A DNA stretch of 64,000 nucleotides from a virus. The notes under the pieces are model-generated. The model was not told the origin of the DNA. It searched no databases and saw only the letters and a list, made by a program, of their open reading frames with translations. The position numbers and the translations under genes are program-made. Shown piece after piece: positions 27,465 through 56,734 of this stretch. The stretch is taken from the IMG/VR virus record IMGVR_UViG_3300025997_000005; one strand, 5' to 3'. Every line of letters begins with the position of its first letter. Position 1 is the stretch's first letter.

Positions 27465-27550
27465 CACTTGCAGCTAACGGTTGTGTGTATGAAACGTAGC
27501 CATAGTAAACAGTTGATATAAACCACAGACCTTGATTGGGTATGTTTTAT

Positions 27551-29000: not shown

Positions 29001-29830
29001 CGTTTAGTGTATGGCAAGTAAGCCACGCACGAAACTATCAAATTACTAATAACTTAATAGAATGAACGAAACTTTAAATAACGCAGAAACCCACCATGTT
29101 TTATACACGGTGTTAGGCACAGTTTTATATCAAATTTGTGCAAAAGGAAAATATGCTTCATTTGATGGAAAAACCAAATATTATAGTAAAAACGCTTACA
29201 TTAACAAACCATCACAAGATGAAATAGATTCTTTTATTGATAAGTGCTGTAACAGTAAACATCCTAAGAATTTATATGATTTGGAAAAGGAAACAGTTGA
29301 AATATTTATTGTTGAATTGAAACTTGCTCGTTAAATAGTGTATAACGGGTTGCATATAACCTAAGTAGCGGACTTTAAAACCAAATGTTGAATATAAAAA
29401 TAAACTTGATATGAAAGAAAAATGGACAATTAACATACCTAACCCGCTATTTTGGTTATATGCTGTTATGTATCGTTTTCATAAGTGTAAATTTGAAAAT
29501 AAATTGTATGATATACCTATGGAAAACAATACAAATTTTCTAGTAACACAATGCAGATGTGGAAAAACTAATATGGTAAGAGCACACAGGGAAAGTGAAA
29601 TGTATAAGGATTGGATTAAATGATACATACCAAGTAGAACAAAATGGGCACTGCGTGTATCAAGGAACTGAAAGTGATTGTAATGAATGGCTTAAATGTC
29701 AGTTAGGGTATTGTGGCTCTCGTGCCGAATTATTAAGCACAAAACTTAATTTGGAACAATAAAGAAAAACAAAAAGAATTTTAGGGTGGAAATTTTAATT
29801 TGGAATATTTATATATATAAAGAAAATACT

Positions 29831-30418
29831 ATGAGTGAGATGAAAAACCATATTAAAACTACCTTAAAAGAATTTGTTGCTAAAATTATTAAAGAAGAAC
29901 TTGAAAATGACACATATGCTTCATTTAAAGGTGTAAAGCCATATAAAGAAAGATTATTAGATTTTAAAAATTCAATAAAAACATTCCACGATTTAGATGA
30001 TGATAAAATATTGAAATGTATTGATTTTTTTGGGTGGGAAGGATTTGAAGATGAAGAAGAAGCTTTTAAAGAATTAAAAGAAAGGGTGGAATTTTATAAA
30101 AAATTACCAAATCCTTCAATAATGTATAGAGCAGTTGGTGTTAAAAATAAAAAACTGATAGACATTGAAAATATTGGGGAACACGTTACACCATATAAAT
30201 GGGCTATTGATGGAGATATGCTTTTAATGATTGGTAGTGAGAACTGGGATAATGATGTAGTGCCTTATATAATGGAACTTAGTGTTCCTTTATCTGAAAT
30301 AGATATTATTCAAACAATAATTCAGAATTTATCATTTCCAAATGAACATGAAATAAATTTGAAAAATAAAGGAAAAGGTGCTAAATTTGTAAAAGCATAT
30401 AAATTAAAAGGTTTTTAA
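29831..30418 (+). CDS. Cassette gene: leader (IKTTLKEF...ELE) + possible ART-like domain
   Basis: ATATTTATA at 29805; MYRAV, IGEHVT, EHEI. Confidence 0.5.
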   Translation: MSEMKNHIKTTLKEFVAKIIKEELENDTYASFKGVKPYKERLLDFKNSIKTFHDLDDDKILKCIDFFGWEGFEDEEEAFKELKERVEFYKKLPNPSIMYRAVGVKNKKLIDIENIGEHVTPYKWAIDGDMLLMIGSENWDNDVVPYIMELSVPLSEIDIIQTIIQNLSFPNEHEINLKNKGKGAKFVKAYKLKGF

Positions 30419-30615
30419 AAGTGCGTTGGGAAAATTCTTTTTGTTTTTCATCACAAATGTTAAATAGAAGGACTGAACTAAGGCATGGAGCATAACGGCT
30501 GCAAATATATTGTCGTTTTAATGCAATATATTTGTTGTTAGCACCAGTACGGTAATTTAAGATAAAACTTGATTAAATGGATAATAATTAGTATATTTGT
30601 AAAAAAAATAAATTT

Positions 30616-30987
30616 ATGGAAAAACAATGGAACTGGTTTGAAAAAACCAATAAAAAAGATGCAATTAAAAATGAGTTACAACCATTAATTACTGAAATGA
30701 TTAGTGATGATGTACAGTGTTTATTTATTAGCCCACAAGTTGGCGTAATTTTAGAAGAGTGTGACAATGTGTTTATAATACCTAATGATGAAATAATCCA
30801 TCATAACGAAAATTTAACCGTAGAACATTTTTTTAATTTTTATAAAAATGATGAGCCGATAAGGGTTTACATTGATAGAAACAAAGAAGATGTTGAAATT
30901 ATTGATTTTCGTGGACATAAAGAAATTGTTAATACTTTAAGAATTGGTAGTGATGGATTTTTTACAAAATATAGCAATAAACTTTAA
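30616..30987 (+). CDS. Cassette gene, hypothetical
   Basis: Own TATATTTG promoter inside body 30537-31018. Confidence 0.65.
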   Translation: MEKQWNWFEKTNKKDAIKNELQPLITEMISDDVQCLFISPQVGVILEECDNVFIIPNDEIIHHNENLTVEHFFNFYKNDEPIRVYIDRNKEDVEIIDFRGHKEIVNTLRIGSDGFFTKYSNKL

Positions 30988-31324
30988 ATCGAAGCACTTT
31001 CGTAGTATTGGTGCTAACGGTTGGGTGTATGAGAAGGTTTGCTTGTATAAACTTTCAAATTACCACACTGTTAATAGCAAACTTTCTTATACACCTTGTT
31101 ATAACCAGTACGGTAATTTAAGATAAAACTTGATTAATTGGAAAATAATTAGTATATTTGTAAAATAATGAATTATGGAGAATAGAAGAATTATTAAAGT
31201 AGAAGTTCCAAAAGAAATTTGGGATGCACATATGTCTATTTTTAATTTTAGAAAAGATATATTAGGTGCTTGGATGGAAAGCGTTAGAAAAGTAATTAAC
31301 GAAATGACATTAACAAATTAATTT

Positions 31325-31654
31325 ATGGATAATAGTTTATTAATATTTGGTAATGAAAAACAAAATTACACTTCAGATATATTTTATATTGAAAATGATA
31401 ATGTTTATTTTACCGAAGTAAATGTTTTTAAATTAAACGGAAACATCTACGCAATAGATGATACTTGTAAAGTAGATAGAAATGATATAGTTGATGGAAT
31501 TAACAATGGTGATGATGTTATAATTAAGATAGATAGTTCTTTTTTAGTTGCAGTTATAATACCAAGGAGTTTAGAAACCAAACTAAAAAACGCAATTGAT
31601 AATGAAGATTATGAATTAGCAAAAATAATAAATGATAAAATTAAAAACAAGTAA
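31325..31654 (+). CDS. Cassette gene with C-terminal UVR (UvrB/C) motif
   Basis: LKNAIDNEDYELAKIINDKI. Confidence 0.7.
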   Translation: MDNSLLIFGNEKQNYTSDIFYIENDNVYFTEVNVFKLNGNIYAIDDTCKVDRNDIVDGINNGDDVIIKIDSSFLVAVIIPRSLETKLKNAIDNEDYELAKIINDKIKNK

Positions 31655-33036
31655 AATGGAAAATTTAACAATTAAAATCACTATTAGTGATGATGAAAAA
31701 GAAATCAAAGCTACAAACATCAATGTGGGTGATTATAAAAAAACTAAAGACTTACATGGTATCTCTTTGGTTGATGAAATGGTTAATGAATTATTATCTA
31801 CAATCGAAGCGGATAAGTAGTATTGGTTATAACGTATCGGTTGTATGGTTAGTGCGATTTAATAATAATAAACTTTAATGAAATGACAGAAGCAGAGTAA
31901 ATATTCGAAAAACACATTGGGTTAAATACTGAATTAGGTTATTTGCCTTTTGAAAGACGAACCTTTTAATTATTAACCGCCCTTTTTCTTTTATTTTTTT
32001 TGAGCGTGGGCAAATGCTTGTAAAAGCAATTATTTACAAAATAATTAAAATATTTTGCTTTTTTCTTTGGTAGTTACAAAATAAGTTATATATTTGTAGT
32101 GTAATAATTAATTAATAACAATTTAAAACACAAAATTATGAAAACTTTACATTACATCTTAAACACAAAAACAGACGAAAGCTTTGATACAATAGAAATG
32201 AAATTTTATCCTAATAATTGGGAACCTGAAATGGAAGAGGATAAAGATTATTTACAAAGCTTAATTGACGAAGACCCAGAAAAATTTAAAAACTGTATAA
32301 TCGAAACAAGAACTTTTGAATAATGGCTTACTGGTTTTTAAATAAGCAAACAAAAGAGCCGAGAATATTCTCGACTCTTTGCCTGTTATGTGTGAAGAAA
32401 TTACTGAACTTGATAAGCAAAGTTTAGAGTACCATTTTAGCAGACTGAAAAAAGAAGAATTTGAAAACGATAATTACAGAATTGTTAAGCGTAATCTTGA
32501 GAGGGGTGGAAAAAAATAAAAGAAAAAGATTAGAAGCACTAAACGTTGATACAGCACGGAATTAGGCATAAACTATATACCGTGTTGTGCAATCGTTTTA
32601 ATGTTGCACAACGTTTTTCGGCTTGGTGTCTGTTATTTTGCCTTGCAGACATTTCAAGTTTTAGATAAATTTAATAGGTAAAATAATAGCACCAAACCGC
32701 TGTTAGTGGCTGGTGCGGTAAATTAAACGAAAATGAAATTTCATAAAACAAAAGATGGTAAAAAAATTAAGTTGACTGATTTAGAAACGAATCACTTGAA
32801 AAATATCATTAAATGGATTGAACGGAAAGCAAAGGAAGGATTAACGGTAGGAATGGGCGGTGGCTCGTGTGCTGAAGATATGTGGTATGATGAGGAAACT
32901 TATTATGGCAAAGAAGCTAAAAGCCAACTTAATTTTTCAGACTACAAAGCTGAATTGAAGCGGAGAGTTAGCACTTGCCACTAACGTAGATAGGCTATGA
33001 ATAGTAAGGCGATTTTAAAACACAAAACTTTGAATT

Positions 33037-33225
33037 ATGAAATGGATTAAATTAAAAGACCGAAAGCCATCTTGCGAGATTGATGGTGAAAAGATGTTGG
33101 TTTACAGAATAATGAATGAAAGCCAAGCGAGTATGGCAATAAGCATCCTTGATACGAAGATGATTAAATACAGTAATGAGGATGAAACTTGGTGGATGGC
33201 TTTACCTGATGAACCACGAACCTAA
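33037..33225 (+). CDS. DUF551-like small protein encoded inside an attC loop
   Basis: WIKLKDRKP...WWMALPDEP; lies between hairpin arms at 32982 and 33247. Confidence 0.65.
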   Translation: MKWIKLKDRKPSCEIDGEKMLVYRIMNESQASMAISILDTKMIKYSNEDETWWMALPDEPRT

Positions 33226-34494
33226 GCCTTATTATTTATAGCCTTTGTTGTAAAATCGTTTTAATGTTTTACAACGATTTGCAGCTAACCGAAGTTGGCG
33301 ATTACGAAGCACAAAACTTGAATTTAAAAAAAATGTATAATCGAAGCATAAACGTTGATATAACCACTGAACCGCCAATTTTGGTTAGGTGCTGTTATAA
33401 GCCGTTTTTCTTCACAAATTTTAAATAAAATGTATAATAAAATACCAGATAACAAAGTAAAAGAAGCTATAAAGGATTATAGTATTACCAAATTGAAATT
33501 ATTTATAGATGCAATGGATATAGCTAATGAAAAAGCAGAAAGAGGTTCAGATGTTCGTTTCCAAACTTATGATGCTAAACAAGTAGCTATCGACTTGCTT
33601 TATGAAAAGACGTGTAGTTTCTTAAATGGCTTATAACGGAAAAATGTAAAAAATCGTTGCGATATGAATGAAGAACTATTTGGAAAACTGCACGAACAAG
33701 AAGAATATGGATTGTTTGGGAAGGAACACGAACGCCAGCAATGTTTTTTACATAGTGTTAGCACCAGTGCCTACACGAAATTAAATATTAAAACTTAAAT
33801 AAAAATACAATGGCAAAAACAGTAAAATTACCCGATAACATTTCCGAAGAAGAATTAGTAAGGCTTTCTAAAATGAAAGAACTTTATATGACATACACCA
33901 ATGAAGGATTAAAAGATGATGAGTATGAACAAATGAGGCAATTAGCAGAAGAATTATCTTACTGTTTTGCTGTCGATACGAAGGTCTGATGGCATTGGTG
34001 CTAACGGTTTGCAGATAGGCGATGTGGCGGATTTTGGAACGCTGAACTATCTGTAAGCACTTAACTTGATTTGAAACACTAAACTTAATATTAACCGAGA
34101 AACCCGCCATAGTGCTGTTATGTGCTGGCCTTCTCAAAAACTCAAATAGAATGATAAACAAAATAATTGAAATCGCATTTAGTGGCTTTTGGCCATTTGT
34201 AGGAATGATGATATTACTAAACGGAGCGGCCTATTTTGCTGTAAACGGTTTGGTAAAAATGTGGAGCAGGTTTATGAGAATGTTAATGGTTAGGAAACAT
34301 GGTTGGCCGCCTATTCATTTAGATGCTGATGGCGATTGGAAACCTGAGCCAAAAGCTGACTATGACGCTAATTAGGCTTGCACATAACGGTTGCAAATAT
34401 AAAACGTTGTAACAAAAATTATAATTAGTGTAACAAAATTTGAAATTAAACGTATAATATAATTGAAAAACGACAGCAATGTTTTATATTTGTT

Positions 34495-34611
34495 GTTATA
34501 TTTCAGTTTTGGGGATGAGTTTCAGTAAAACTCCTTGAACTATTTGCCATCTGAGAAGGATGCGGTCTGAATTAACAGATACACAATGGTTTCCCCAAAA
34601 TTGAATATAAC
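34495..34611 (+). ncRNA. ORF-less cassette, putative small structured RNA
   Basis: TTTTGGGGA/TCCCCAAAA closing stem with three internal hairpins. Confidence 0.4.
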
Positions 34612-35378
34612 GTTACGCAAGTATGAAACGTGCCAACACAAACTTTGATTGAAACAATGGACATTAAATTAACATAAATATTAACTTAGATGCAGGATAG
34701 GCATGTTTTATACTTGCTGTTAGGCATCTGTAAAAATTACGGATATGAAAGACCAAGACAAACAAATGATGAAATTTAGAGCAAAAGAAGAATTGAAGAT
34801 AAAACTTCTCAAAGTTATATTAGACTATAAAAGTGAAGAAGAACCTAAATGTGAATTAACAAGCACTGATATTATTAATGTTTTATCTTCAATGATAGTA
34901 AGACAAACTGAGTAATTTTTATTGTGCCTAACGTTTTGCGTGTATATGTCAGGGGGGCGATTAGAAGCTCTAACTTTTCAATTACGCAGAAAGTTTGACA
35001 GAAGAACTAAACTTGAATAAACCACAGAACCGCCACTTGCATATACACGCTGTTAGTGGCTGGGCTTTTCACAAAAAAAATTAAAATGACAGACGAAATT
35101 AAAAGACTGAAAAAAGAACTGAAAGACTGGAAATCTCAAGAAGTTAAAGAACGATTTGAAAGAGTTAATTCTCAACTTCATCTTGTTACTATCAATGAAT
35201 TGCAACACAAAATTAAAAGATTGAAACGTGGTGAAGATATTTAGGTCGTTCTTTAGCCTTGCCACTAACGAAAAGTTTATGGCGTGTTGCGTGAACAGAG
35301 AATTAACTTAACAAATAGATAATGAAACATAGTGAAGATATTAAAATGGAAATTGGGGGTAAATTTATAAGTAAAAAT

Positions 35379-35855
35379 ATGGAAATAAGAAAATTAATAG
35401 ATAAAGTTAAAAACTTTGGTAAAACCAAAGTGTATAAATGTGTTGATGGTGTTTACGATAAAAACCGAAGTGGTGTTGATTATTTAGCGGTTAACTTAGA
35501 TTACGCTAAAAAATTCGGTGATAATTGTTATAAAATAACCATAGATACAACAAATTATAATATTCTAAAATTAGATAAATGGAATAAAATTTATAGTGAA
35601 AAAACTGGTAAAAACGGAAATAGATTTAATAGACAACAAGGATTATTCGTAATCGGTGATATAGCAATTACATCAAATTACAAAGAAGAACTTGATTTAT
35701 TTTCAAATGTTTTGGGAGAATACTTATCAAGCAAATTTCTAACTGAATTGAATAGTTGCGATGCTATTTACGGAGAAGACGCAGGATATGTAGGTGAATT
35801 TGTTTTTGCTGTAAAAAATAAAGATATGATACTTGAAATCGAAGCACTTTCGTAG
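35379..35855 (+). CDS. Cassette gene, possible ART-like protein
   Basis: VYK, YLAVNLDYAKKFG, DAI, E motifs. Confidence 0.4.
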   Translation: MEIRKLIDKVKNFGKTKVYKCVDGVYDKNRSGVDYLAVNLDYAKKFGDNCYKITIDTTNYNILKLDKWNKIYSEKTGKNGNRFNRQQGLFVIGDIAITSNYKEELDLFSNVLGEYLSSKFLTELNSCDAIYGEDAGYVGEFVFAVKNKDMILEIEALS

Positions 35856-38586
35856 TATTGGTGCTAACGTTTAGTGTATGGCAAGTAAGCCACGCACGAA
35901 ACTATCAAATTAGTACAAACTTTAATGGCTTATTTGCTATACACTTTGTTAGCATTTCGGCTTTTGTTAAACAATAATATTTAAAAATATGAATGAATTG
36001 AACGATTGGCAAACAGAAATAACAATTGATGCTTTAAATCATTATTGGCGTTATGTTGTTGAAAAACTATCTCAGACAGACTTAGGAGATATTGAACGCA
36101 AGAATTTAGAGTTAGATAAAGAAAGAACTCATTCAACTCTACGGCATCTCGGAGCATTTTAAGCTGAATGCTAACGGTTGCAAATATAAGTAGTTATTAA
36201 CTAAACTTAATTAAAAGAGTAAAAATATTATTAAACAACAATATTTATTAAAAGTAATGAAATAATTGCTTATATTTGTTGTTATAAATATGTAAAAATT
36301 ATGTATAAAAAGAAAGAACAATTTGCAGTTTATGAAAAAGAACCTGCACATGGAAAAGATAAGAATGGTGTGATACTTGCACCATATAATACAAAAGAAG
36401 AAGCAGAAACTGCAAAGAAGCAATATGGTTATGATAACGATAATTATTATGTTGATATACTTAGGTAATAATTTTTATTATTTATAACGTTTTGTAGCTA
36501 TAAGCAGTTGCCAATAAAACTGCCTAAACTTCAAATTAATAAACAATGAAAACAAGAACAAAACGGTCTTTAAATTTAAGACAAAAGTGGCAATTGCTTA
36601 TAACCACTGTTATGAGTAGTGCGGTGTTGTTAAAAGCAAATCACATTTTATTTTGGTGGTATTATAAAAGAGTTCCAAAATTCTTTCATAAATGGACAAT
36701 TTTAAAAAGTGTTACACTACTTAAGCAAAATTATGAACACGCAGAATTTAGATATGAAGGGTTAAATGAAGTTGTTAGAAATGCTTCAAAAAGGGAAAGA
36801 GAAATGACTACTGAAATTTCTAATTTAAGATTAAAATTAATGGGAGTTTCTCAAGATGTTATTGACCCTTTAAATGAAATTTTCGGAACGAATTTAAAAG
36901 GAAAATCGACTTTTGAAAGGGATAATTAGCATTACTCATAACGGTTACGTATAAGAAACGTTGCCATTTTGAAACACGAATGTTAAACTTAAAATAAACT
37001 TGATATGAAATACGAATTTAAAATTACCGATGAAGCTGGCAATGTTTTTTTATACGATGTTAGCCGTAGTTCATCTGATGAAGAAAAAAGTTTGAATGAC
37101 TTCATTTTAGAGGCATTACAGATTTCGGAAGATAAACGTAAGCTACCATTTAAAATACAATGCCCAAACAATTTAGAAGTATATCCTTTATTAAAAATGA
37201 AGTTTGAAAACTATGGTTCGCCACTGCTCGGAGATAAGCTCGAAGCAATGCACGTAACATGGCGTGATTGAATTACGGCTAACGGACGAGTGTATGAAAA
37301 TTAGCCCATACATAGGCGTTCGGAATTATTACAAAACTTAATTAGGCTATTTTTTATACACATTGTTAGAAACCTTTTTTATTATGACAGTAGTACAAGA
37401 ATTAATTGATTATATTAAAACTTATACAAGTTTGAATGACCCTTTGAGAAATAATATAGATGCAGATATTCAAATTTGGTTGAACAAAGAGAAAAAGCAA
37501 ATAGTTGATGCCGTAAATAATGGATGTAAATCTAGGTGTAATATAGATGCTCCAAGAGATGGGGAAACTTATTATAAAGAACGTTTCTCAAATGGTGGCT
37601 AACGGACGGGTATAAACCATCGTTTTAATGTGGTTTATACCTTGTTACCTGCTGGTGCGGTTAATTAACGATAAACTTAAATTAATACACAAGTTTGAAG
37701 AAAAAAGTGGTAGAACATGTGTTGAATTCAGGATATTTTCTGATGGAAGTGGAACTATAAATGAATATGATGTTGAACTTTTTTCTTTTGATACATTAGA
37801 TTACTTAATACAATGGTTGGAAGCATAATTTTTATGTTTGCTAACGAACGAGTGTATGGGTAGTTTTTGCCCGATTAAATAAAACTGAATTATGGATAAG
37901 ATTAAAGAATTAACAGACTTTTATATGTGGATGCAAGAAAATGACTATGACCACAACATAAGAGCAAGAGTTGAAAAAAAAGCAGAAATGTACTTAAAAG
38001 GTATTAACGTAGGGCAAAAATTACCTATACACAATGTTAGCAATCTTTTATGTGGCTCTTTCGACCCTGACAATAGCACAAGCAGTGCCACTAAATGTAA
38101 ATGCGGACGTGAGAAATGTGAACACCCCAAAGCCACATAATTGTTGCTAACGGCAAGGTATAAAAACAGTAGCGACATGAAAGAAAAGATAACTGAATTA
38201 ATGGAAAGATTTGATGAAGGAAACATGTGTATAAATGACCTAGAGCAAGAGCTATTGGTTTTATACAATGTTACCCCACGTTATTCTGTTTCATTGGTAT
38301 TTGTAAACGCAAGAGAAAACCTTTTGCGATGCTTAATAACTGATGCTTCAAATGAACACGAGGCTTTAGGTAAAGCACTTGACCACTTTAAAGAAGAAAC
38401 AAAAGGTTTTAATCTAAGTATGAAAGTTGTACTCCCTGCTTATAATGTGGGGTAACGGTTTGGCTATGTGCCGTTGTGAGGTACGAGCAATGGACATATA
38501 GCCGTTGTTACCATTAGTACGGTAAAATTATTACAAAACTTTTTAATATTCCTTTTGTATTTACAAATTATTTACTATATTTGCAT

Positions 38587-38842
38587 AAGTTCTTTGAGTA
38601 AACAAAACCGAAAACGTGAAAGCAACAAGATGCGGTCTATGGAGATGAGAGTTATGAAGGTTATACGCTATATAAGATAGGGAAAAAGTACGCTTTAGGA
38701 AAATAAAACCCGAACACTTGGCGAAGTGTTCAACCTAAATAAACGGTGGTGTCATAGTTATGCAGGAATTAAAACCGATGCACTGAAAAGAATGTGTTGA
38801 CAGGCTTGATAACAGGCGACTGGGCTGATACTCAAAGAACTT
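38587..38842 (+). ncRNA. Promoter-driven ORF-less cassette, putative ~255-nt structured RNA
   Basis: TATATTTG promoter directly upstream; perfect 14-bp terminal IR AAGTTCTTTGAGTA/TACTCAAAGAACTT; internal GAACACTT/AAGTGTTC hairpin. Confidence 0.55.
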
Positions 38843-39338
38843 TATTATTATAAATTAAGACAAAAAATAAAAAATAACGATATGAATGACTGAAGATACC
38901 AAACAGAAAGCAGTTAATTTATCTGTTTTGGTATTAGGAACTGAAAATATAAGCGGTTATATAAGCTACTTAATCAATAAGGCACATTTAGAAGCACAGA
39001 AGTAGTATTAATGGTAACGTATCGCAGCTAAACGCCTGTGTCCCGCAGGGCATGGCGTTTTAGGTGTTGTTATCTTCTGTTTTTGCGTGCGGTGGGAAAA
39101 TATATTTGTACCTGATTTGGTACTTCCAAATATTATGCGTACCTTTGTTGGTACAAGCACTAAAATATAAAGTTATGCTGAAATGTAAAAAATGCTCTTA
39201 TGAATTTGAAGTACCAAAGAATGCAATTGAACCTGTCTTTGCCATATACTGTAAAGCATGTATCAAAGAAGGTTTAAAAAAAATGGCTAAAATGCCGCTC
39301 AAAGAATACATGAAAATGACAGCTAAATCAATTGGACT

Positions 39339-39623
39339 ATGAATTTGACAGACGAGCAACTCAATGCCTTTCGCAAATTGTGGTTTATATACGGCAATGA
39401 CGGGGGGAAATGCACAATGCTTAACCATAAGCTGGTGCAAGGTTTTTACCAATACCACGAAGATAGGCGGGAAGCCTACCGAGAGGCAGAAAAGAACATG
39501 ACCGAACGCTTTGGTAAGGACAGCCCACGGCTGAAAGACCTCCCCACCGAAGAATGTTTTCAGGTATGCGGTTTGGTATTGGATGGAAAAATAGCTAAAG
39601 CGTTAGAAATAGCTAAAGAATGA
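39339..39623 (+). CDS. Cassette gene, hypothetical (GC-richer than surroundings)
   Basis: ATGA-coupled in a three-gene cassette. Confidence 0.7.
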   Translation: MNLTDEQLNAFRKLWFIYGNDGGKCTMLNHKLVQGFYQYHEDRREAYREAEKNMTERFGKDSPRLKDLPTEECFQVCGLVLDGKIAKALEIAKE

Positions 39624-40770: not shown

Positions 40771-40936
40771 CATTTTAATTGCCTACAACGGATGGTGCTA
40801 TATGTCAGGTTTGCCTTGTAGAAATTGTCAAGTTACAACAAACTTAATGGCAAACTTGCATATAGCACGTGTTATAGCCAGTACGGTTTAATTAGTACAA
40901 AACTTTAATCGAAGAACTAAAAAAAGAATTTAAAAA

Positions 40937-45613: not shown

Positions 45614-46136
45614 TTATTTTGCGGGTTATGTAAAAATATGTTTACTTTAATTTGGTAGTTAGTAAATTTATGTTTACATTTACAGAGTAAAACAAATAGA
45701 GATGGAAACTGTAACAATAACAAAAAGAATTATAAACGGAACAGAGGTTTATAACAAAAGGTTTGATGATTATGAAAAAGGTTTTTATGGCGAAAAAATT
45801 TCTAAAAAAGAATATGAAGAAAGTAAATCTTCTAATACGCCAAAATATACAGATACAAATAAAACATTAAACATTATAGAAAGGATAACTTATGAAAACT
45901 AGAAAGAAAAAAGTTTTTACAAACTGGTGCAGAAGTTGTCATTTTGATTGGATGATTGCTGTAAGAGAAGTAAAAGGTAAAAGGTGGATGAATGTATTAT
46001 CTCACCTTGAAAACAAAGGAAATTTTAATGTTGATGATTTTAATAAAATTGAAGATTCTTGGAAAAAGATATTAGAAACAATCAATTTAATGACAGAAGA
46101 AGAAATAAGTTATTTACACAATCAAAAATACAATGT

Positions 46137-46316
46137 ATGAATTGGCACGAAAGATTTAAAGCAATGAAATCAGGGTTAGGATTAACTAACTCCGATATTG
46201 CTGGCATAACTGGTAATAGTGATGATTCTGTAAAGTCGATTACTCAACCAAATAAAGACATACCACGTTGGCTAAAACTCGCTATTGTAGTTTATGAACG
46301 GATGGTAGCAAAATAA
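46137..46316 (+). CDS. Small HTH protein closing a three-gene cassette
   Basis: LGLTNSDIAGITGNSDDSVKS...IPRW. Confidence 0.7.
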   Translation: MNWHERFKAMKSGLGLTNSDIAGITGNSDDSVKSITQPNKDIPRWLKLAIVVYERMVAK

Positions 46317-49300: not shown

Positions 49301-49749
49301 ATATTGTTAGTGTAAATGTTTGCTAACGTTTTGCAAATAAAAACAGTAAAAGATATGAAACGACAAATTTTAAAAATAGCAGATGAACTTGCCAATGATG
49401 TAATAACTACGGAACAGGCAAAAAACCTTTTATTGGTTTTATTTGATGTTAGCCACAGTACTTCTTACTTAGATGATAAGTACGAGGTTAAATGGCTAAT
49501 AAATAATACATACCAAGTAGAACAAAATGGGCACTGCGTGTATCAAGGAACTGAAAGTGATTGTAATGAATGGCTTAAATGTCAGTTAGGGTATTGTGGC
49601 TAACGTGCCGAGTATATGAAATGTAGCGTGTAAACAGCCGAAAAGCAACGATTAAGAGCTGAATTAAATAAATAGAATATTAACCAAGTGGGAAGCGAAA
49701 ACAGCTATATTTTATATACTGTGTTACCCACTTTTAAAAATAGCGGTAA

Positions 49750-50052
49750 ATGAAAGCTAAACTAGAAAAATATAACGGAATTGATTACTTGACTTTTAAA
49801 GTAAATGAAGAAATTGGATTAACACAACTTCCTGTAATTACAAAAGGAACACGAGAAGGCACAAATGCTTGGACTTGGAACGGTGATTTGGAAAAACCAA
49901 CACTAAGACCAAGCGTAAGAACAGGCTACTACAATGGTAAAGAAACGACGGAAATACATTACTGGCTTAATGATGGAATTGCTGATTGCTTGGGCGATTG
50001 CAAAGATGGAAATGCAGGTAAAAAACTTGCCTTAATGGAACTCGAACAGTAG
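49750..50052 (+). CDS. DUF6527-like protein (cassette)
   Basis: WTWNGDLEKPTLRPSV, H.WLNDG. Confidence 0.7.
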   Translation: MKAKLEKYNGIDYLTFKVNEEIGLTQLPVITKGTREGTNAWTWNGDLEKPTLRPSVRTGYYNGKETTEIHYWLNDGIADCLGDCKDGNAGKKLALMELEQ

Positions 50053-50701
50053 CCATTTTTTATTGTGGCTAACGGTTGCGTGTATATTCAGGTTTGCTTG
50101 TAGAGACCTTGAATTATGCACAAATGCTGATGCAAACTTGAATATACACGTTGTTATGCTCTCGTTGCGGTAAATTTACTCAAACCCTTCAATCGAAGCA
50201 CTAAAAACATTTTTATTCTTTTGTGTGATGGGGAAAATAATTATATTGATTATCAACATATTAGAAAATATATTGAAAATATTTGCAAATTTATTAGGTA
50301 ATTTGAAACAAAAGTATTACCTTTGACGTATAAATTAATAAACAACTTAAAATTTAAAGGTATGACAAATTCAGAATTAAACAAATTATCAGTTGCTGAA
50401 CTTAGGGAGTTAAGAAATAGAGTAACTGAAATGCTTCAATTGAAAATGCAAATTGAAGGTAAATTAAACAAGGATGTTTTAAAATTTGGTATGACCGTTA
50501 AATATATTGGTGGTCGTGATAAAATTAAAAACGAAACTTTTGTAATCGAAAGAATTAACAAAGTGAATGCTGTTTGTAAAAGTAATGTAGATGGAAGACG
50601 TTGGAATATTAATATTGCAAACATTCAACCATGTGAAGATTTAATAGAAACAATGGGAGATGATAATTATGAACCAGAAAGTGGTTTCCAAAAATAAAAT
50701 T

Positions 50702-50887
50702 ATGGCAAAGCGAATATCATTAAAATTAACTGACAAAAATGATTGGTTAGTTGAAGCAATAAATAAGGAAATTGATGAAACGAATAGACCATCATTTAAT
50801 AATATGGTTGAAACCATTCTTGTTTCTTATTTTAAAGCGAAGGAAGAAAAGAATAAAAATGTTACCACAAATGCTAATTCGGAGTAG
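50702..50887 (+). CDS. Small ribbon-helix-helix protein closing a cassette
   Basis: KRISLKL...SFNNMVETIL. Confidence 0.6.
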   Translation: MAKRISLKLTDKNDWLVEAINKEIDETNRPSFNNMVETILVSYFKAKEEKNKNVTTNANSE

Positions 50888-50942
50888 TTCCTTAGCAATG
50901 GAGCATAACGGACAATAATAAACAATCGTAAAATTATGACTT

Positions 50943-51209
50943 ATGAAAAAATTTAAAGGAAGCAAACACTCACATGCTAAATGGGTGGCAGAAGAATTAT
51001 TTAATGAGATGCAAAACACAGTTGATGAAGCAGCAGAATTGTTTGCTTCTGATATTTATAGCATAGCCAAGTGTTGCTCTTATAAAGCTATTGAACTAAA
51101 TAAACTAGCAGTTCTTGACGGATGGGGTTATAAAGAGGTTTGTAATCAAACACAAGAGCAACACGACTTTTGGGAACTCGTGAAATCATATTTAGATGAC
51201 ATTAAATAA
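50943..51209 (+). CDS. Hypothetical protein encoded inside an attC loop
   Basis: Between arms at 50906 and 51230; followed by a 29-bp empty body. Confidence 0.7.
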   Translation: MKKFKGSKHSHAKWVAEELFNEMQNTVDEAAELFASDIYSIAKCCSYKAIELNKLAVLDGWGYKEVCNQTQEQHDFWELVKSYLDDIK

Positions 51210-51864
51210 TTTTATGTTGTTTATTTATTGTTGTGGTGTCGTTTTAATGCAGCACAACGTTAAGTATATGGCAAGTTGGGGATTAAAATGTGCTACCCTT
51301 TTAATTTGCAGAAAAGTAAATTAAAAGCACAAATGTAGTTTATTGGAATTGCGCCCCAATTTGCTATATACATTGTTAGGCGCAGTTATTTTTAAAATTA
51401 TGACAACAAAAAAATTAGTGAACTTAATGATGAAATCTTCTGACCACAATCCATATACTGGTAAGCTGTCAGAAAGTGCTAATGTATTGGCTGCAATAGA
51501 ACTTGCAAAAAAGTTTAAGGAATTTGCAGACGAAGTATATACAGACGAGGCAATGGGTATTGAAAGCAGCCAATGGGTTGAAGTGATAAACAAACTTGAA
51601 GAGAAGCGACTTAATTGCGCCTAACGGTTGGGTGTATATGTAGTAGTGGATAGAAAGAACCGAGCTTTGATTAACCACTGAACTTCATAGAAACAACTAA
51701 CGTTGATTTACAGATGAAACCACCATTACATATACACCTTGTTATGACCAGTACGGTTTATTTACCACAAAACTCGATTAGAACCACTGAACAAAACTTT
51801 TTAAAAATGTGCGGTGGGAAATTTAATTATGAATATTTATATATAAGATAAAGTATTTACTTAT

Positions 51865-52341
51865 ATGGAAAACGACAAATTAAGAAGTTTTATAAAAACG
51901 ACAATCAGAGAATTTCTAAATGAGAATGTTAAAGGTAAAACAATATACCATTTTACTGATGGTTTGGATTCATTATATTCAATTTTGAAAGGTGACTCAT
52001 TAGAATCTGGTTCATTTAATGGTATTTATGGTAAAGGATATGATAATATTTCCTTTACTTGGAATCCAAAATTATGGGATATTGAGTATGCTGGTGATAG
52101 CAATGGTAGATATAATGCAAGAATATCATTTGACTATGGTAGAATTAGTCAGAAATGGAATTTTAAACCATTTAATTACGGTATAGATGAGGAAATGGAA
52201 GAAATAGTTGAAACTGATGAAATGCACGGAATTGTTGCATATATTACAGAAATTCTTATTAGTGATGAAGAATCTATGTTAGAGATTAATAATTTGAAAC
52301 GTTCTTATCCGAATTTAAATATTAGAACAATTAAAAGGTAG
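51865..52341 (+). CDS. Cassette gene: leader (FIKTTIREFLNE) + ART-like domain
   Basis: ATATTTATA at 51833; IYHFT, L.SIL, ISFT, EMEE. Confidence 0.55.
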   Translation: MENDKLRSFIKTTIREFLNENVKGKTIYHFTDGLDSLYSILKGDSLESGSFNGIYGKGYDNISFTWNPKLWDIEYAGDSNGRYNARISFDYGRISQKWNFKPFNYGIDEEMEEIVETDEMHGIVAYITEILISDEESMLEINNLKRSYPNLNIRTIKR

Positions 52342-52466
52342 GAAATTTTTAAAAAGTTTTGAAACAAAAACCCAATTAGAACGTATAATATAGTATTGGT
52401 CATAACGTATCGCAGATATGGAGTCGATTTTTTACGGATTTAAAACACACTAAAATAATTATTATT

Positions 52467-52712
52467 ATGAGAAAAGAAGAAATACTTAGGAAGCATTTTA
52501 AAGTTGAATTTGGACACGAGGGACATGGTAAATTTATGCAGTATATTTTAGCAGCAATGGATGAGTATGCAAAACAGGAAGTAAAAAAATGCTCTATACC
52601 TGCTGTTGTAGGGAGAAGCGAACAGTTAAAATGCGAACACAAAGGGCGCAGAACAGCAACTGAACTCGTGGAATATTGCGAAGATTGCAAAAAGATACTT
52701 TTCCATCCGTAG
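52467..52712 (+). CDS. Loop-to-body fusion ORF with the same zinc-finger module as 40522
   Basis: Near-identical 3' half, unrelated 5' half. Confidence 0.75.
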   Translation: MRKEEILRKHFKVEFGHEGHGKFMQYILAAMDEYAKQEVKKCSIPAVVGRSEQLKCEHKGRRTATELVEYCEDCKKILFHP

Positions 52713-53726
52713 CATTTTAATTGCCTACAACGTTGAGTATATAATTTCGTTGTTGCTTAACAGCACGACACTAACAAAATAAGATAAAGATGAAGAAAGC
52801 AAAAAGAATCCAAAAACGCAGAACCCACAACAATGAATTATATACATTGTTAACTACTGGCGTTTTACAAGAACTTAACTTTAAGGACATTGGACAGAGT
52901 GAATTTGAGTTATTTGAAAACATGAGTTATTGGATAAAGAATAGTATTTGCCTATTCTATAACACCCCAATAAATAAAGATTGGCAAGATAGCTTTTATA
53001 TAGGATATGCTGAAATGAGGCAAGGCAAATACGTTGCTGTTACTTTTAGATGGATTGATAGTGTAGAAGAACTAACTCAAATTTACGAGAGTATAACACG
53101 AAAGAAAATAGATGAGCCGATTTAACGGTTGTAGTTAACGGCTGGCGGTATGAAAAGTTGCGTTTTTAACCGCACGAACTTCTACTAACCGATGAACGTT
53201 AAATAAATGTAGAAACTTAAATATTAACCGCTGACCCCGCAATTTTTTATGACCGCTTGTTATAGTGCGTTTTCTGCGGGTAGGCATTAAAACTAATAAA
53301 ATGGCAAATTTATATGTAAAAGAAATTGGATTGCTTAATATCAAAGAAAGCAAAGAGGAAGTTTTAATTGAGCTAAAAAATGAAAATCCTGAGTGGGCTG
53401 AATATACAGTTATAGAAAGTTTTTATGGTGAAATGAGCGGAAAAACTCACACAAATGAAAAACTATTAACTATACGAACAAGAAATATAATTGCAGTTGA
53501 ATAGTGCGGTAGGAAAATGCACTATAACGGTTGGGTGTATGAGAAGGTTTGCTTGTAGAAACTTTCAAATTTACCACTACCGTTGATAGCAAACTTTCTT
53601 ATACACCTTGTTATGCTCTCGTGCCGACTTATTAAGCACAGAACTTGATTTGAAATACGAAAGAAAAACAAAAAGAATTTTAGGTGGATTTTTTTAAATT
53701 TGAATATTTATATATAAAAGAAAACA

Positions 53727-54236
53727 ATGAATGATTTGAAAAAGTTTATAGCAACCACAATAAGAGAATATTTGAACGAAACTTCAAAATCTATTGTAAC
53801 TTATAATAATGATACTGTAATTAAGAAATTTAATGACAAATATGAATTAGAAAATACTATTAAATATTTTCCAAACCATCCTAATTTATTTCCTATAATT
53901 TATAATATTAATGGAGACGAAATAGAAATTGAAAGATTAGATACTAAAAAAGCAATAAAAGAATTTAATATATTAAATAATTGGTTTAAGAAAAATCTTA
54001 AAATATCTTTTGGTTCATATTTAATGAGAGATTATACTTTCAAACATATCTATCCAGATAGACCATATCCGAAATTACCATCAGATTTTCCAAAAGAATA
54101 TAAACAAATACTTGATAAGTATCAAAAACTAATTAATGATATAATGAAAATTGTTGGTAAATATTTCTTACTTGATGTTCATTCATTAAATTTTGGATAT
54201 GATAAAAATGGAAATTTAAAAATGTTTGATATTTAA
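53727..54236 (+). CDS. Cassette gene: leader (FIATTIREYLNE) + protein kinase-like domain
   Basis: ATATTTATA at 53704; VIKK, DVHSLNFG catalytic-loop-like, MFDI. Confidence 0.65.
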   Translation: MNDLKKFIATTIREYLNETSKSIVTYNNDTVIKKFNDKYELENTIKYFPNHPNLFPIIYNINGDEIEIERLDTKKAIKEFNILNNWFKKNLKISFGSYLMRDYTFKHIYPDRPYPKLPSDFPKEYKQILDKYQKLINDIMKIVGKYFLLDVHSLNFGYDKNGNLKMFDI

Positions 54237-55587
54237 AAAATATTTAGTATCTTTGTTGTGTGTTGGTAAAATTCTTTTTGTTTTTCATCACAAATGTTAA
54301 ATCGAAGAACTGAACTAAGGCATGGAGCATAACGACTGCGTGTATGTTGTCGTTGCGGTAAATTAGTATAAACTTTAATAAATGAACGAAATGAAAAAAC
54401 TTTGGAAATGGTTATTTGGAAAACGAAAACAGCAATGCAATATACACGATGTTGTGTGTAGTGCGACCACTGAAAGGAAACCAAACCCATATATGCTGTT
54501 GTGGTATAAACAAGGTTGGAGTGAAAAAAGAATTGCTATTAATAACTCAAAGTATTGGAAATGGGAGATAGACCACAACGGTTTTCGTCCATAGCATTAC
54601 ACACAACGTTGGTAATATGAAAAGTTGGCTTTGCAGCCACTTTCAAGTTACCAAACAGTTTGATAGCCAATTTTTTATATTACGTGTTATCGCTTCGGGT
54701 TTTATTAATCTTTTAAATTAAAATATATGATAGTCAGAATTAAACTAAAATCAAAAGGAGAAACATTCACAATGATGTTTGGAAATTCTTATAAAAATTG
54801 GGAAGAGCAATTTCGTGAATATTGCTTTACTTTCAAACCAATAGAAATAATTCAAATTGAAACATCTCCTGAAAAATGGAAAGGTTGGGGAGGGTTGAAG
54901 TGGTGCAATGAAACAGAGTTTCAACACGAATTAAACCGTGAGGGTTGTCAGCAAAATGAACCAGATAATCCTAAACCAAGAAAGTATGAATATATGAGAT
55001 TCAATTCAAATCAAATTGTTTCAAATATTGCCAATAAGATTGCTCGTAGGTATCTTTAACCTGAGCGATAACGTTTTGTGGCTTTGTGTCTGTTATTTTG
55101 GCTTGCAGACACTTGCCTTTAAAGATAAATTTTATAGCCAAAATAATAGCACAAAACCACTGTTAGTGGCTGGTGCGGTAAATTAAACGAAAATGAAATT
55201 AACAGAAGAACAATTTAATGAGCAGTATGGTGAAGCAAAAGTTGTTTTCGCCTATTATTACAAGTATTCATTCTCATTTGTGGGTGAATTTGAAGGTAAA
55301 ACGATAAATATTAGTGTAGGTGGCAACGCTGATGATATTTATAGATTTGATGTTGAATCTAACAAAGAATATCAAGTAAAGGAATTAGGTATTAATTATG
55401 CCACCGTAAAAGAAGGCGAAACAACTATTGCTGAATTTACAGACGGATGGTAGCACTTGCCACTAACGGACAGGTATATGAAAAGTAGCCTGACCACAAA
55501 CTTTGATATTATGCACCGAACTTTCATAGGCTATTTTTTATATACCATGTTAGCTGTCTGGTGCGGATTTAAACGATAAACTTTGAT

Positions 55588-56421
55588 ATGGAAAACGAAC
55601 GTAGTAATAATATTTTTTTGAGCGGTGGCAAAAATGGTTTTGAAAAAACCAAGAACGTTCTTTGGTATGGAGAATGCCTTCAGTTAATGAAACAGATACC
55701 CGACCAAAGCATAAACCTTATTTGTTGTGATTTGCCGTATGGGGTGACTAAAAACAAATGGGATTCATTAATTGATTTGGATTTACTTTGGAAGCAATAT
55801 GAACGGGTAATTATTGAAAATGGTGCAATAGTTCTTTTTGGGCAGGATAAATTTTCTGCAAGGTTGATGCTCTCAAATGAAAAGCTACACAGATATAATT
55901 TGGTATGGCAAAAAACAACACCAACTGGACACTTGAATGCTAAAAAAATGCCTTTGAGAAGCCACGAAGATATATTGGTGTTCTACAAGAAATTACCGAC
56001 CTATAACCCACAAAAAACAACAGGACACGAAAGGAAGGTAAGCACCGCAAAGCATAAGCGAAACTCGAAAAAGACAACCAACTATGGTGAACACGGACTT
56101 ACTACCTATGATAGTACTGAACGATACCCAAAAAGTGTTTTGACTTTTGCAACGGATAAACAGAAATCTGCATTACACCCAACACAAAAACCACTGGAGT
56201 TGATTAAGTATCTTGTAAGAACTTACTCAAATGAAAATGATTGGGTACTTGATAATACTTGTGGAAGTAACACTACTGGTCTTGGTTGTTTTGAATTAAA
56301 CCGAAACTATATTGGAATTGAAAATGATTTTGATATGTACGAAATTTCAAAAGAGCGGGTGGGAGAAAAAAATATTATTACGGCTTATACGCACGAACCT
56401 TCAATTAAAACGGGAACGTAG
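55588..56421 (+). CDS. DNA amino-methyltransferase (N6-A/N4-C, beta class; cassette)
   Basis: DLPY, HPTQKP, VLDNTCGSNTT, YIGIE. Confidence 0.92.
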   Translation: MENERSNNIFLSGGKNGFEKTKNVLWYGECLQLMKQIPDQSINLICCDLPYGVTKNKWDSLIDLDLLWKQYERVIIENGAIVLFGQDKFSARLMLSNEKLHRYNLVWQKTTPTGHLNAKKMPLRSHEDILVFYKKLPTYNPQKTTGHERKVSTAKHKRNSKKTTNYGEHGLTTYDSTERYPKSVLTFATDKQKSALHPTQKPLELIKYLVRTYSNENDWVLDNTCGSNTTGLGCFELNRNYIGIENDFDMYEISKERVGEKNIITAYTHEPSIKTGT

Positions 56422-56734
56422 CACTTGCAGCTAACGATAAAGCTAAACACCGTCTGAGGCGGATAAATAATGAAAACTATGATAATAGAACTAACAAAAA
56501 CAGAAACACGAGCCTTGAAATGGTTGCTTCATAAAGGCATGGAAATAACCAAGAGCGACCAAAAATACGAGGTGTTTGATGCTTTGAGCCAACGACTAGC
56601 CTCAGATGGTGATTTAGCTGATGTTGTAGGGCGAAGCGAACAGTGCGCCCATCCGAGAGATAAGCGTGAGTATATAGGCTCTAATATGCTTAGATGTAAA
56701 GTTTGCGGCAAAGAGTTCAGTTAGGGCGCATTGC

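What the first reader, a model, noticed from the sequence alone, without database searches (positions are those of the whole stretch)
29062..56724. ORFs that start in the attC loop and read through the core give modular chimeric proteins
Seen: about 17 ORFs begin in a hairpin loop and cross the GTT core; 13 read GTT as Val in frame (e.g. 37005 YDVSRS, 37892 HNVSN, 49120 HIVSKR, 54382 HDVVCS). 40522-40770 and 52467-52712 share a near-identical C-terminal zinc-finger module (VVGRSEQLKCEH...CEDC) with unrelated N-termini, and 56470 has VVGRSEQ with a third N-terminus and another finger. Inference: loop-encoded and body-encoded modules are reassorted. Caveat: with the inferred polarity the canonical crossover is at AAC, so swaps at this GTT need opposite-strand or homologous recombination.
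Basis: partly seen in the sequence, partly recalled or inferred. Interest (0 to 1): 0.8.

Follow-up and report, generated by a model that had tools for sequence, protein, structure and literature searches.

The report
Phage hairpin sites splice protein halves
In this large flavobacterial-type phage, integron-like DNA hairpins between small genes carry a start codon and a short protein "head" that is read in frame across the recombination core into the next gene segment. The same heads and bodies occur in dozens of other combinations in other phages, so these sites shuffle half-proteins as well as genes.

Summary
The window holds about 56-62 attC-like hairpins (25.6-56.6 kb) that end at a 269-aa Xer-like tyrosine recombinase.

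- **ORFs:** 19 ORFs start inside a hairpin and cross its GTT core: 12 read GTT as Val, 6 read xxG-TTA, 1 uses the third frame.
- **Frame bias:** it is weak. TAG/TAA in the core closes one frame, and 12:6 gives p=0.24.
- **Wide occurrence:** the 21-nt junction that encodes VVGRSEQ occurs letter for letter in 52 viral contigs, always in that frame. Upstream open frames have a median of 52 codons, against 6 and 9 in the other frames.
- **Body swapping:** the window's zinc-finger body sits on 44 unrelated head clusters in public proteins.
- **Head swapping:** the window's own head (40522) sits on five other bodies. Nucleotide homology ends at the GTT, and each body brings its own R boxes.
- **Translation:** bodies evolve under purifying selection (12 synonymous, 1 non-synonymous change) and lack a start codon of their own, so the fusions are almost certainly translated.
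- **AAC edges:** exact edges also fall at AAC.
- **Mechanism:** site-specific exchange on either strand is the best reading, but it is inferred, not shown.

Earlier AI notes of this scan describe the same kind of element on other DNA. I found no paper that describes it.

The parts
25558..56643 (+). Array of about 56-62 attC-like hairpins, alternating with gene bodies, all in one orientation
   Evidence: Half-site matrices and arm pairing. Cognate L arms pair at -10.4 against -4.8 kcal/mol for non-cognate arms. R'(n) matches R''(n+1) at 5.16 of 6 outer positions, against 2.45 within a hairpin.
40467..40671 (+). Hairpin with AAC at 40473 and GTT at 40663. Its 187-nt loop holds the ATG and 47 head codons.
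40522..40770 (+). Fused ORF, 82 aa: a head predicted as two helices, then VVGRSEQ, then a Cys/His body
   Evidence: The head recurs on five other bodies. The AF2 model has low confidence.
40663..40790 (+). Body module, copy 1, bounded by GTTGTAGGG and CCTACAAC
   Evidence: 93% identical to 52605-52732 and 94% to L024
52398..52613 (+). Hairpin with AAC at 52404 and GTT at 52605. Its loop holds the ATG and 46 head codons.
52467..52712 (+). Fused ORF, 81 aa: an unrelated head on the same body
52605..52732 (+). Body module, copy 2
56427..56631 (+). Last complete hairpin, with AAC at 56433 and GTT at 56623
56470..56724 (+). Fused ORF, 84 aa: a third head, the same 21-nt junction, and another Cys body
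   Evidence: The body recurs in L018 on another head, with 12 synonymous and 1 non-synonymous change.
56623..56643 (+). 21-nt junction motif (R' box plus 12 nt, containing GCGAAGC). It also lies at 40663-40683 and 52605-52625.
   Evidence: Exact in 52 viral contigs. No synonymous variants in 562 kb.
56733..56765 (+). Terminal half site (R''-type box, 5 nt, TTATACAC...) directly before the recombinase gene
   Evidence: The same layout is seen in L054, Polaribacter phage Leef_1 and G001.
56792..57601 (+). 269-aa tyrosine recombinase, Xer-like and not IntI
   Evidence: Pfam PF00589. In NCBIfam the best hit is XerA_Arch at 136 bits, below its cut-off. IntI models score 72 bits (cut-off 265) and 32 bits (cut-off 435).
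29411..29623 (+). Frame-0 crossing ORF. An ATG also lies right after the GTT, and the gene is frameshifted relative to its homologue 49355-49603.
36546..36929 (+). Frame-0 crossing ORF, with an ATG also right after the GTT
37005..37271 (+). Frame-0 crossing ORF (YD|VSRS)
37892..38140 (+). Frame-0 crossing ORF (HN|VSN) with 48 head codons. There is no ATG after the GTT.
38177..38455 (+). Frame-0 crossing ORF
39825..40076 (+). Frame-0 crossing ORF
49120..49326 (+). Frame-0 crossing ORF (HI|VSKR)
49355..49603 (+). Frame-0 crossing ORF with no ATG after the GTT
54382..54594 (+). Frame-0 crossing ORF (HD|VVCS)
29062..29334 (+). Frame-2 crossing ORF. Its head recurs at 48006 in front of another body, where it is not fused.
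42401..42730 (+). Frame-2 crossing ORF
43552..43845 (+). Frame-2 crossing ORF. Its body occurs elsewhere with at least five heads, and also without a head.
44587..44874 (+). Frame-2 crossing ORF (TTG start)
51343..51624 (+). Frame-2 crossing ORF (TTG start)
52790..53125 (+). Frame-2 crossing ORF
37628..37828 (+). The only frame-1 crossing ORF. It starts at the ATG of the short-loop motif TCGTTTTAATG.

Best explanation
The crossing ORFs are real genes for small proteins of about 70-130 aa. Each is built from two DNA modules that move independently.

- Head module: the interior of an attC-like hairpin. It holds the 5' arm, a leader, the ATG, 16-51 codons, and the 3' arm, which encodes the last head residues.
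- Body module: a segment bounded by 9-nt inverted R boxes, GTT-N6 ... N6-AAC.

The two meet at the conserved GTT core, and the core is read as part of the protein. Heads and bodies are exchanged by breakage and joining exactly at the GTT, and whole units are exchanged at the AAC.

The most likely agent is a structure-specific tyrosine recombinase of the Xer-like kind encoded at the end of the array. It would act on the folded single strand of either DNA strand, so that both arms of a hairpin serve as crossover points.

Shown: the anatomy, the in-frame reading, the combinatorial pairing, the nucleotide break points, and purifying selection on bodies.

Inferred: that the recombinase does the exchange, that single strands are the substrate, and that the fused proteins are made and useful.
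For: 1. Hairpin anatomy with covariation. Cognate L arms pair at -10.4 against -4.8 kcal/mol for non-cognate arms, and stems of 10-14 bp differ from site to site in other phages.
2. Cassette signature. R'(n) is complementary to R''(n+1) at 5.16 of 6 outer positions (33 of 55 perfect). R'' and R' of one hairpin match no better than chance.
3. Break without flanking homology. The head of ORF 40522 is joined in five other contigs to bodies that begin GTTGTAAAA, GTTAGCCAA, GTTGTAGAG or GTTGTAGGG. Homology ends at the GTT, and two of the bodies visibly end in their own matching R''.
4. Scale. One body occurs on 44 unrelated head clusters. The IMG/VR sample has 44 head clusters and 37 body clusters. 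The frame-2 body 43552 has five heads.
5. Coding.
   - In 49 distinct junctions, frame 0 is open for a median of 52 codons upstream (minimum 35), against 6 and 9 in the other frames (p=3e-23).
   - Bodies show 12 synonymous against 1 non-synonymous change (binomial p=6e-7).
   - Several bodies have no in-frame ATG.
   - Cultured phages (Leef_1 gp37, phi19:3 gp032) carry such ORFs, annotated across the junction.
6. Link to recombinases. The layout of array, terminal half site and tyrosine recombinase on the same strand is seen in the window, L054, Leef_1 and the 266-kb phage G001. Their recombinases are only 30-55% identical to the window's.
7. Exact recent edges at AAC. L054 and L056 are 100% identical from the base before AAC onward. 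L021 and L053 are 99.4% identical from R'' onward.
Against: - No recombination product, excised circle or activity has been seen.
- Three of four complete phage genomes that carry the junction motif have no tyrosine recombinase at all. In those genomes any site-specific step would need an enzyme supplied in trans.
- Some mosaic edges are not at AAC or GTT. They lie near the ATG in L065, L067 and L068, and 48 nt before the GTT in L021/L053.
- The letter-for-letter conservation of 12 nt beyond the R' box is not explained by the model.
- The recombinase is not an IntI.
- Much of the comparative material is short metagenome contigs.
- The choice between frame 0 and frame 2 is not statistically biased in the window.
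- Frame-2 bodies could start at the NTG that overlaps the core.
Confidence: 0.6

Rival explanations
1. Heads and bodies are reassorted by general (homologous or microhomology-driven) phage recombination at conserved junction sequences, as proposed for the promoter/stem-loop cassettes of T4-type phages. In this reading the hairpins serve expression (terminator, promoter, translation control) rather than recombination.
For: - A block of 21-31 nt is identical in all junctions of the VVGRSEQ class, and 13 nt are conserved at the 3' end of the body. These could serve as homology patches.
- Three of four complete genomes with the motif lack a tyrosine recombinase.
- Some edges lie away from AAC or GTT.
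Against: - One head is joined to bodies with four different R' boxes. Only the GTT and the head's own arm are shared at the break, so there is no homology on the body side.
- R' and R'' of each body are complementary over 9 nt, although the sequence differs from body to body. An expression signal would not require that.
- Arrays end in a half site next to a recombinase in four phage lineages.
Confidence: 0.2
2. The true cassette is hairpin plus body (from AAC to the next AAC, the reverse of textbook polarity). A head and its body then normally travel together, the protein is not chimeric in origin, and the mixed pairs are rare accidents.
For: - Exact recent edges lie at AAC.
- Several in-window repeats start at AAC and run through the GTT into the body.
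- L034 carries a duplicated unit from about -187 to +114.
- 21 homologues of ORF 43552 keep head and body together.
- The half site next to the recombinase is of the AAC type.
Against: - Mixed pairs are not rare: 44 head clusters on one body, six bodies on one head.
- In-window repeats are as often bounded at the GTT as at the AAC.
Confidence: 0.12
3. The upstream extensions are not translated. The real starts lie at or after the GTT, and the open head frames are by-products of constraints on the hairpin DNA.
For: - An NTG start-type codon overlaps the core in all six frame-2 ORFs.
- GTT-ATG occurs in three frame-0 cases.
- Some relatives of body 43552 exist without any head.
- Head sequences are poorly conserved.
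Against: - Bodies of the VVGRSEQ class have no start codon, yet evolve under purifying selection.
- Frame 0 alone is open, for a median of 52 codons, in 49 independent junctions.
- Head A of ORF 43552 stays open in 20 variants with 10-20% divergence, and one has an in-frame two-codon deletion.
Confidence: 0.05
4. The mixed head/body pairs are assembly chimeras created at the repeated junction.
For: Many comparators are Logan contigs built with 31-letter words, and the junction block can reach about 31 nt.
Against: - The decisive joins (L064, L065, L066) share fewer than 31 identical letters across the junction, so the joining words must have been read.
- Two copies of one body on different heads lie in this single contig.
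- Complete genomes of cultured phages carry such ORFs.
Confidence: 0.03

Closest known systems
Integron attC sites and gene cassettes, including attC clusters without an integrase (CALINs) reported in phages (Qi et al. 2023, PMC9892861; one case is Polaribacter phage P12002L, with methyltransferase cassettes)
   Same: - Imperfect hairpins with conserved AAC...GTT cores, where structure is conserved rather than sequence.
- The R' at the start of a unit is complementary to the R'' at its end.
- Long one-way arrays of small accessory genes, among them DNA methyltransferases.
- A tyrosine recombinase next to a half site at one end of the array.
   Different: - The recombinase is a 269-aa Xer-like enzyme without the IntI hallmark.
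- The genes point towards the recombinase.
- Loops reach 750 nt and carry starts, heads or whole genes.
- Both AAC and GTT act as break points.
- The core lies inside reading frames, so exchange makes new proteins, not only new gene orders.
Translational fusions at integron cassette junctions (fused cassettes, PMC4670013; the attI1-derived or neighbour-derived N-termini of AAC(6')-Ib are from my own knowledge)
   Same: A cassette gene can take its start codon and first residues from the sequence upstream of the recombination point.
   Different: Those are sporadic accidents affecting a few genes. Here about a third of the sites are built this way, with fixed frames and a junction peptide conserved at DNA level across many phages.
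Shufflons and invertible C-terminal segments (R64 Rci/sfx, phage Mu Gin, P1 Cin; own knowledge)
   Same: Site-specific recombination sites lie inside a reading frame, and alternative protein ends are joined in frame to a constant part. A tyrosine recombinase gene (Rci) sits beside the shufflon.
   Different: Those systems work by inversion between inverted double-strand repeats within one genome, and they serve one protein. Here all ORFs keep one orientation, the sites are hairpins, both halves vary, and the exchange is seen between genomes.
PeSLs, the promoter/stem-loop cassettes that flank genes in hyperplastic regions of T4-type phages (Arbiol et al. 2010; own knowledge)
   Same: Repeated stem-loop units lie between small accessory phage genes and are linked to modular shuffling.
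   Different: PeSLs are conserved in sequence, lie between genes, and are thought to act through homologous recombination. Here the stems covary, the R boxes are specific to each body, and the breaks lie at a 3-nt core inside ORFs.

Membership tests
Complete integron | IntI integrase with the IntI-specific extra domain | tested here: not met
   269 aa. TIGR02249 scores 72 bits (cut-off 265) and covers residues 14-180 only. PRK15417 scores 32 bits (cut-off 435). The best model is XerA_Arch at 136 bits (cut-off 220).
Complete integron | attC sites: R''-L''...L'-R' imperfect inverted repeats with AAC/GTT cores, where structure is conserved and sequence is not | tested here: met
   56 curated sites. 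Cognate arms pair far better than non-cognate arms. Stems covary in other phages. IntegronFinder and HattCI were not available.
Complete integron | R' at the start of a cassette is complementary to R'' at its end (trace of the circular form) | tested here: met
   5.16 of 6 outer positions match, and 33 of 55 pairs are perfect. Non-cognate pairs match at 2.28 of 6.
Complete integron | Cassette genes point away from intI/attI and are read from a common promoter | tested here: not met
   All array ORFs and the recombinase gene are on the + strand, with the recombinase downstream. A Pc promoter was not tested.
Complete integron | A single crossover point (G|TT of R', bottom strand only) | tested here: not met
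   Exact edges fall at the GTT and at the AAC. In-window repeats end at both.
CALIN in a phage | Two or more attC sites close together, with no IntI | tested here: met
   An array of attC-like sites with no IntI in the window. The standard detection programs were not run.
Shufflon / invertible C-terminal exchange | Inverted double-strand repeats inside the ORF, with segments found in both orientations | tested here: not met
   Half sites lie almost only on one strand and all ORFs are on the + strand. No inverted copies of modules were found.
PeSL-type regulatory cassette | A sequence-conserved promoter plus terminator stem-loop between genes | tested here: inconclusive
   Stems vary and covary, and they lie partly inside ORFs. 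Promoter function was not tested. Bacteroidota-type -7 boxes are visible in some leaders (read by eye).

The most novel reading that the evidence does not exclude
Flavobacterial phages have a natural in-frame domain-shuffling system. The recombination cores of attC-like hairpins have evolved into coding linkers with fixed reading frames. A Xer-like recombinase, acting on either strand, can then build new small proteins combinatorially from a shared pool of heads (helical) and bodies (zinc-ribbon-like and others). This would be a protein-level counterpart of the integron, probably serving the arms race with the host.
Probability: 0.4. Interest if true: 0.9.

Novelty: new variant of a known kind. 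Interest (0 to 1): 0.8.

Why it matters
Integrons are known to reorder whole genes. Here the same kind of folded site sits inside reading frames, and the comparative record shows half-proteins being recombined on a large scale, with one body found on 44 heads.

If the exchange is enzymatic, three things follow:
- It would be a natural system for combinatorial protein assembly in viruses.
- It would explain part of the very large diversity of small orphan phage proteins.
- It would offer a compact recombination tool, a 269-aa recombinase and hairpin sites that tolerate translation.

It also makes a standing question testable: can attC-like sites be used on both strands?

Three cultured phage-host pairs carry the element (Cellulophaga phi19:3, Polaribacter Leef_1, Tenacibaculum Gundel_1), so the key experiments are feasible.

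Tried and rejected
- **Near-identical DNA search** of 12 kb of the window against 50,697 phage records: no match.
- **tblastn of ORF 40522** against the same records: no match. Only the junction motif itself found cultured phages.
- **Relatives of the recombinase in IMG/VR:** one distant locus.
- **Genome collection scan with P0021:** one unrelated locus. Whether L056 is a prophage-host junction stays open.
- **Own genome:** none is held for this window.
- **P0006 contigs:** no DNA was available.
- **Family and cluster searches:** Pfam found nothing for ten crossing ORFs. The Atlas search gave only unnamed viral clusters.
- **Structure:** the AF2 model of ORF 40522 has low confidence (pLDDT 67). 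It shows a two-helix head and a small beta-hairpin body, and I use it only as a hint.
- **Folding of the 24-nt junction:** nearest-neighbour folding predicts no structure. The GCGAAGC mini-hairpin is therefore a lead from the literature (PMC13037366), not a result.
- **First hairpin finders:** the crude versions were too noisy or too strict and I replaced them with half-site matrices.
- **Covariance model:** none was built.
- **Rejected idea, frame bias as proof of design:** the bias is largely forced by TAG in the core.
- **Rejected idea, the 21-nt motif as the only exchange point:** bodies without the motif are joined to the same head.

Full report
**What the window is.** It has 30% G+C and one dominant coding strand. 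It holds phage-type genes: sigma factors, a tail protein family, a NinI-like phosphatase, RNA ligase, PRPP synthetase, an HNH endonuclease and several DNA methyltransferases. No whole genome is held for it and no close relative exists among 50,697 phage records. The protein of ORF 40522 is on record on contigs of up to 162 kb. The junction motif occurs in cultured phages of Cellulophaga, Polaribacter and Tenacibaculum, so the host is probably a flavobacterium.

**The array.**
- Between about 25.6 and 56.6 kb lie 56 curated hairpins, plus a few degenerate or interrupted ones. Their form is YAAC-G-N4-6-L''...L'-N2-3-GTTR, and all are on the + strand.
- Half sites of either type are almost absent from the opposite strand and from the rest of the window.
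- Within a hairpin the L arms pair at -10.4 kcal/mol on average, against -4.8 for non-cognate arms. The R boxes of one hairpin share only the AAC:GTT triplet: 2.45 of 6 outer positions match, and chance gives 2.28.
- By contrast, the R' of one hairpin is complementary to the R'' of the next, across the gene body, at 5.16 of 6 positions, and 33 of 55 pairs are perfect. That is the signature expected of units that have existed as circles, as in integron cassettes.
- The array ends in a half site (R''-type box, 5 nt, TTATACAC...) 27 nt before a 269-aa tyrosine recombinase gene on the same strand.
- That enzyme scores best against an archaeal XerA model and far below the IntI cut-offs.

**The observation.**
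- 19 ORFs of 66-127 aa start inside a hairpin interior and run through the GTT: 12 read GTT as Val, 6 read xxG-TTA, 1 uses the third frame.
- Such ORFs are tied to long loops: 18 of 35 loops of 100 nt or more hold one, against 1 of 21 shorter loops (p=3e-4).
- Frames that are open after the GTT are open further upstream than other frames (p=0.0016).
- The Val-frame preference is weak evidence. TAG/TAA in GTTAG/GTTAA closes the third frame at once in 21 of 56 cores, and 12 against 6 is not significant.
- In frame 2 the codon that overlaps the core is always NTG, a possible start.
- In three frame-0 cases an ATG follows the GTT directly.
- For at least eleven ORFs the loop ATG is the only plausible start, because the body has no in-frame ATG or only a late one.

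**The shared module.** 40638-40790 and 52580-52732 are 93% identical. The identity runs from the 3' arm of the hairpin to the AAC-G of the next R'', and neither the heads nor the following hairpins are alike. The third case (56623) shares only the 21-nt junction and the 3' end, AATTGCCTACAAC.

**Other genomes: the junction motif.**
- The 21-nt junction (R' box plus 12 nt) occurs letter for letter in 52 IMG/VR contigs with 28-45% G+C.
- In every one it lies in frame 0 of an ORF, with an ATG 18-110 codons upstream and about 33 codons downstream, often with CxxC...CxxC.
- In 562 kb of these loci the peptide VVGRSEQ is never written with other codons. The only variants are single-base changes. The constraint therefore lies on the DNA or RNA, not only on the protein.
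- A pairing partner for the 3' arm lies 165-210 nt upstream. Its stem is 10-14 bp and differs from site to site.
- The body ends 108-123 nt after the GTT in a conserved AATTGCCTACAAC.
- In 49 distinct instances frame 0 is open for a median of 52 codons upstream (minimum 35), against 6 and 9 in the other frames (p=3e-23).

**Combinatorial pairing.**
- In the IMG/VR sample there are 44 head clusters and 37 body clusters. The window's two bodies recur on other heads (L024, L018), and one head (L011/L012 against L037) sits on two bodies.
- Homology blocks match the modules: hairpin only (-197 to +29), body only (-9 to +127), or both (-187 to +114).
- In the protein collection, 58 proteins carry the window's LKCEH...HP body at 79-100% identity (most at 93% or more), on 44 unrelated head clusters.
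- The head of ORF 40522 occurs on five other bodies (P0122-P0125, P0128).
- The nucleotide alignment of these contigs is the key result. Identity runs through the head and its 3' arm and stops at the GTT. After the GTT come GTAGGG, GTAAAA, AGCCAA or GTAGAG. The bodies of P0128 and P0124 end in R'' boxes that match their own R'.
- No homology exists on the body side of the break. This argues for a core-directed (site-specific) exchange rather than homologous recombination.
- On the left, homology starts after AAC plus the spacer in two contigs, but near the ATG in three others.
- The frame-2 gene 43552 shows the same pattern. 21 homologues keep head and body together, but at least five head types and several headless forms exist.

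**Translation.**
- Bodies are under purifying selection: 12 synonymous against 1 non-synonymous change between L018 and the window, and 4-5 against 0-1 for the other body (binomial p=6e-7).
- These bodies have no start codon, so translation must enter from the head.
- Heads are too divergent for such a test. Their frames stay open everywhere, and one head family keeps its frame through 20 variants, one of which has an in-frame deletion.
- Annotators of cultured phages called the ORFs across the junction.
- An AF2 model (pLDDT 67) suggests a two-helix head and a small beta-hairpin body. No family matched.

**Polarity and mechanism.**
- Recent events give exact edges at AAC. L054 and L056 encode the same recombinase protein and are 100% identical from the base before an AAC onward. 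Upstream they differ, and L056 carries a superoxide dismutase gene between matching R boxes.
- L021 and L053 are 99.4% identical from an R'' onward, after bodies with different R boxes.
- In-window repeats end about equally often at AAC and at GTT, and the commonest shared unit is the hairpin interior alone.
- Both arms of a hairpin therefore behave as crossover points.
- The simplest enzymatic model is an integron-like reaction on folded single strands that can use either strand. AA|C on the top strand gives the AAC edges, and AA|C on the bottom strand gives the GTT edges.
- Arrays that end in a half site beside a tyrosine recombinase occur in four lineages. The recombinases in L054, Leef_1 and G001 are 55%, 30% and 32% identical to the window's, and phi19:3 carries a different, 418-aa recombinase.
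- Against a dedicated enzyme: three of four complete genomes with a single junction element have no tyrosine recombinase. This resembles isolated cassettes or CALINs.
- The extra conserved 12 nt contain GCGAAGC, a heptamer known to form an unusually stable DNA mini-hairpin (PMC13037366). The folding program does not predict it, and its role here is unknown.

**Comparison with what is known.** attC clusters without integrase have been reported in phages, one of them in a Polaribacter phage with methyltransferase cassettes (PMC9892861). I found no paper with the junction peptide, the motif, or a description of in-frame head/body exchange. Earlier AI notes of this scan describe the same kind of element in other phage DNA. 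They are unchecked notes and were not used as evidence.

**Verdict.** The anatomy, the pairing matrix and the break points are shown. The enzyme, the single-strand substrate and the production of the proteins are inferred.

Noticed in passing
window 29411-29760 and 49355-49603: ORF 29411-29623 looks frameshifted. From 29617 the +1 frame continues the homology to the C-terminal half of ORF 49355-49603 (97% identity over 112 nt) up to about 29760. This could be a broken gene, a sequencing error or a programmed shift.
   Followed up: partly
window 40670-40676, 56630-56636 (and 52612-52618, where it reads AGAAGC): The junction motif contains GCGAAGC, the heptamer of the very stable DNA mini-hairpin (PMC13037366). 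CGAAG is enriched on the + strand of the array, 37 against 6.
   Followed up: partly
window 30990, 31805, 35840, 42007, 44474: A recurrent motif, ATCGAAGCAC...GTAGTAT, lies 26-27 nt before the AAC of the next hairpin, at the 3' end of five bodies.
   Followed up: no
window 47937-48074: The head of ORF 29062 recurs here (98.6% over 73 nt), but in front of a body in another frame. The result is only a 22-aa stub, and the body has its own ATG. This is an unproductive head/body pair.
   Followed up: partly
window 22840-24690; 8169-8386 and 27546-27763: An IS200/IS605 element (TnpA 24220-24624, TnpB 22840-24072) lies just before the array. A 218-nt repeat (97% identical) interrupts the 3' arm of the hairpin that begins at 27476. 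The 3' end of TnpB recurs at 60049-60150.
   Followed up: no
window 30514, 32594, 33257, 37621, 43491, 51240: The motif CGTTTTAATG fills empty loops and empty bodies. It contains a TAATG stop-start overlap, and ORF 37628 starts at that ATG.
   Followed up: partly
proteins P0121-P0203: Within one head/body combination, both VVGR and VVGQ occur repeatedly (CGA to CAA). This suggests recurrent change at a CpG, possibly tied to the many C5 methyltransferases of these phages.
   Followed up: no
L056 1-1250 against L054 9100-9500: Two contigs with the same recombinase protein differ upstream of one hairpin. L056 carries a superoxide dismutase gene on the opposite strand between matching R boxes. This is either a cassette difference or a prophage-host junction.
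   Followed up: partly
L053 (reverse complement 1849-2056) against L021 4642: A 207-nt in-frame insertion lies inside a head module, so loops accept extra coding sequence.
   Followed up: no
window 25685-27479 and 55555-56436: Two methyltransferase units share about 77 nt at the 5' end and 87 nt at the 3' end (92% identical) but have different interiors: the same shell with another payload.
   Followed up: no
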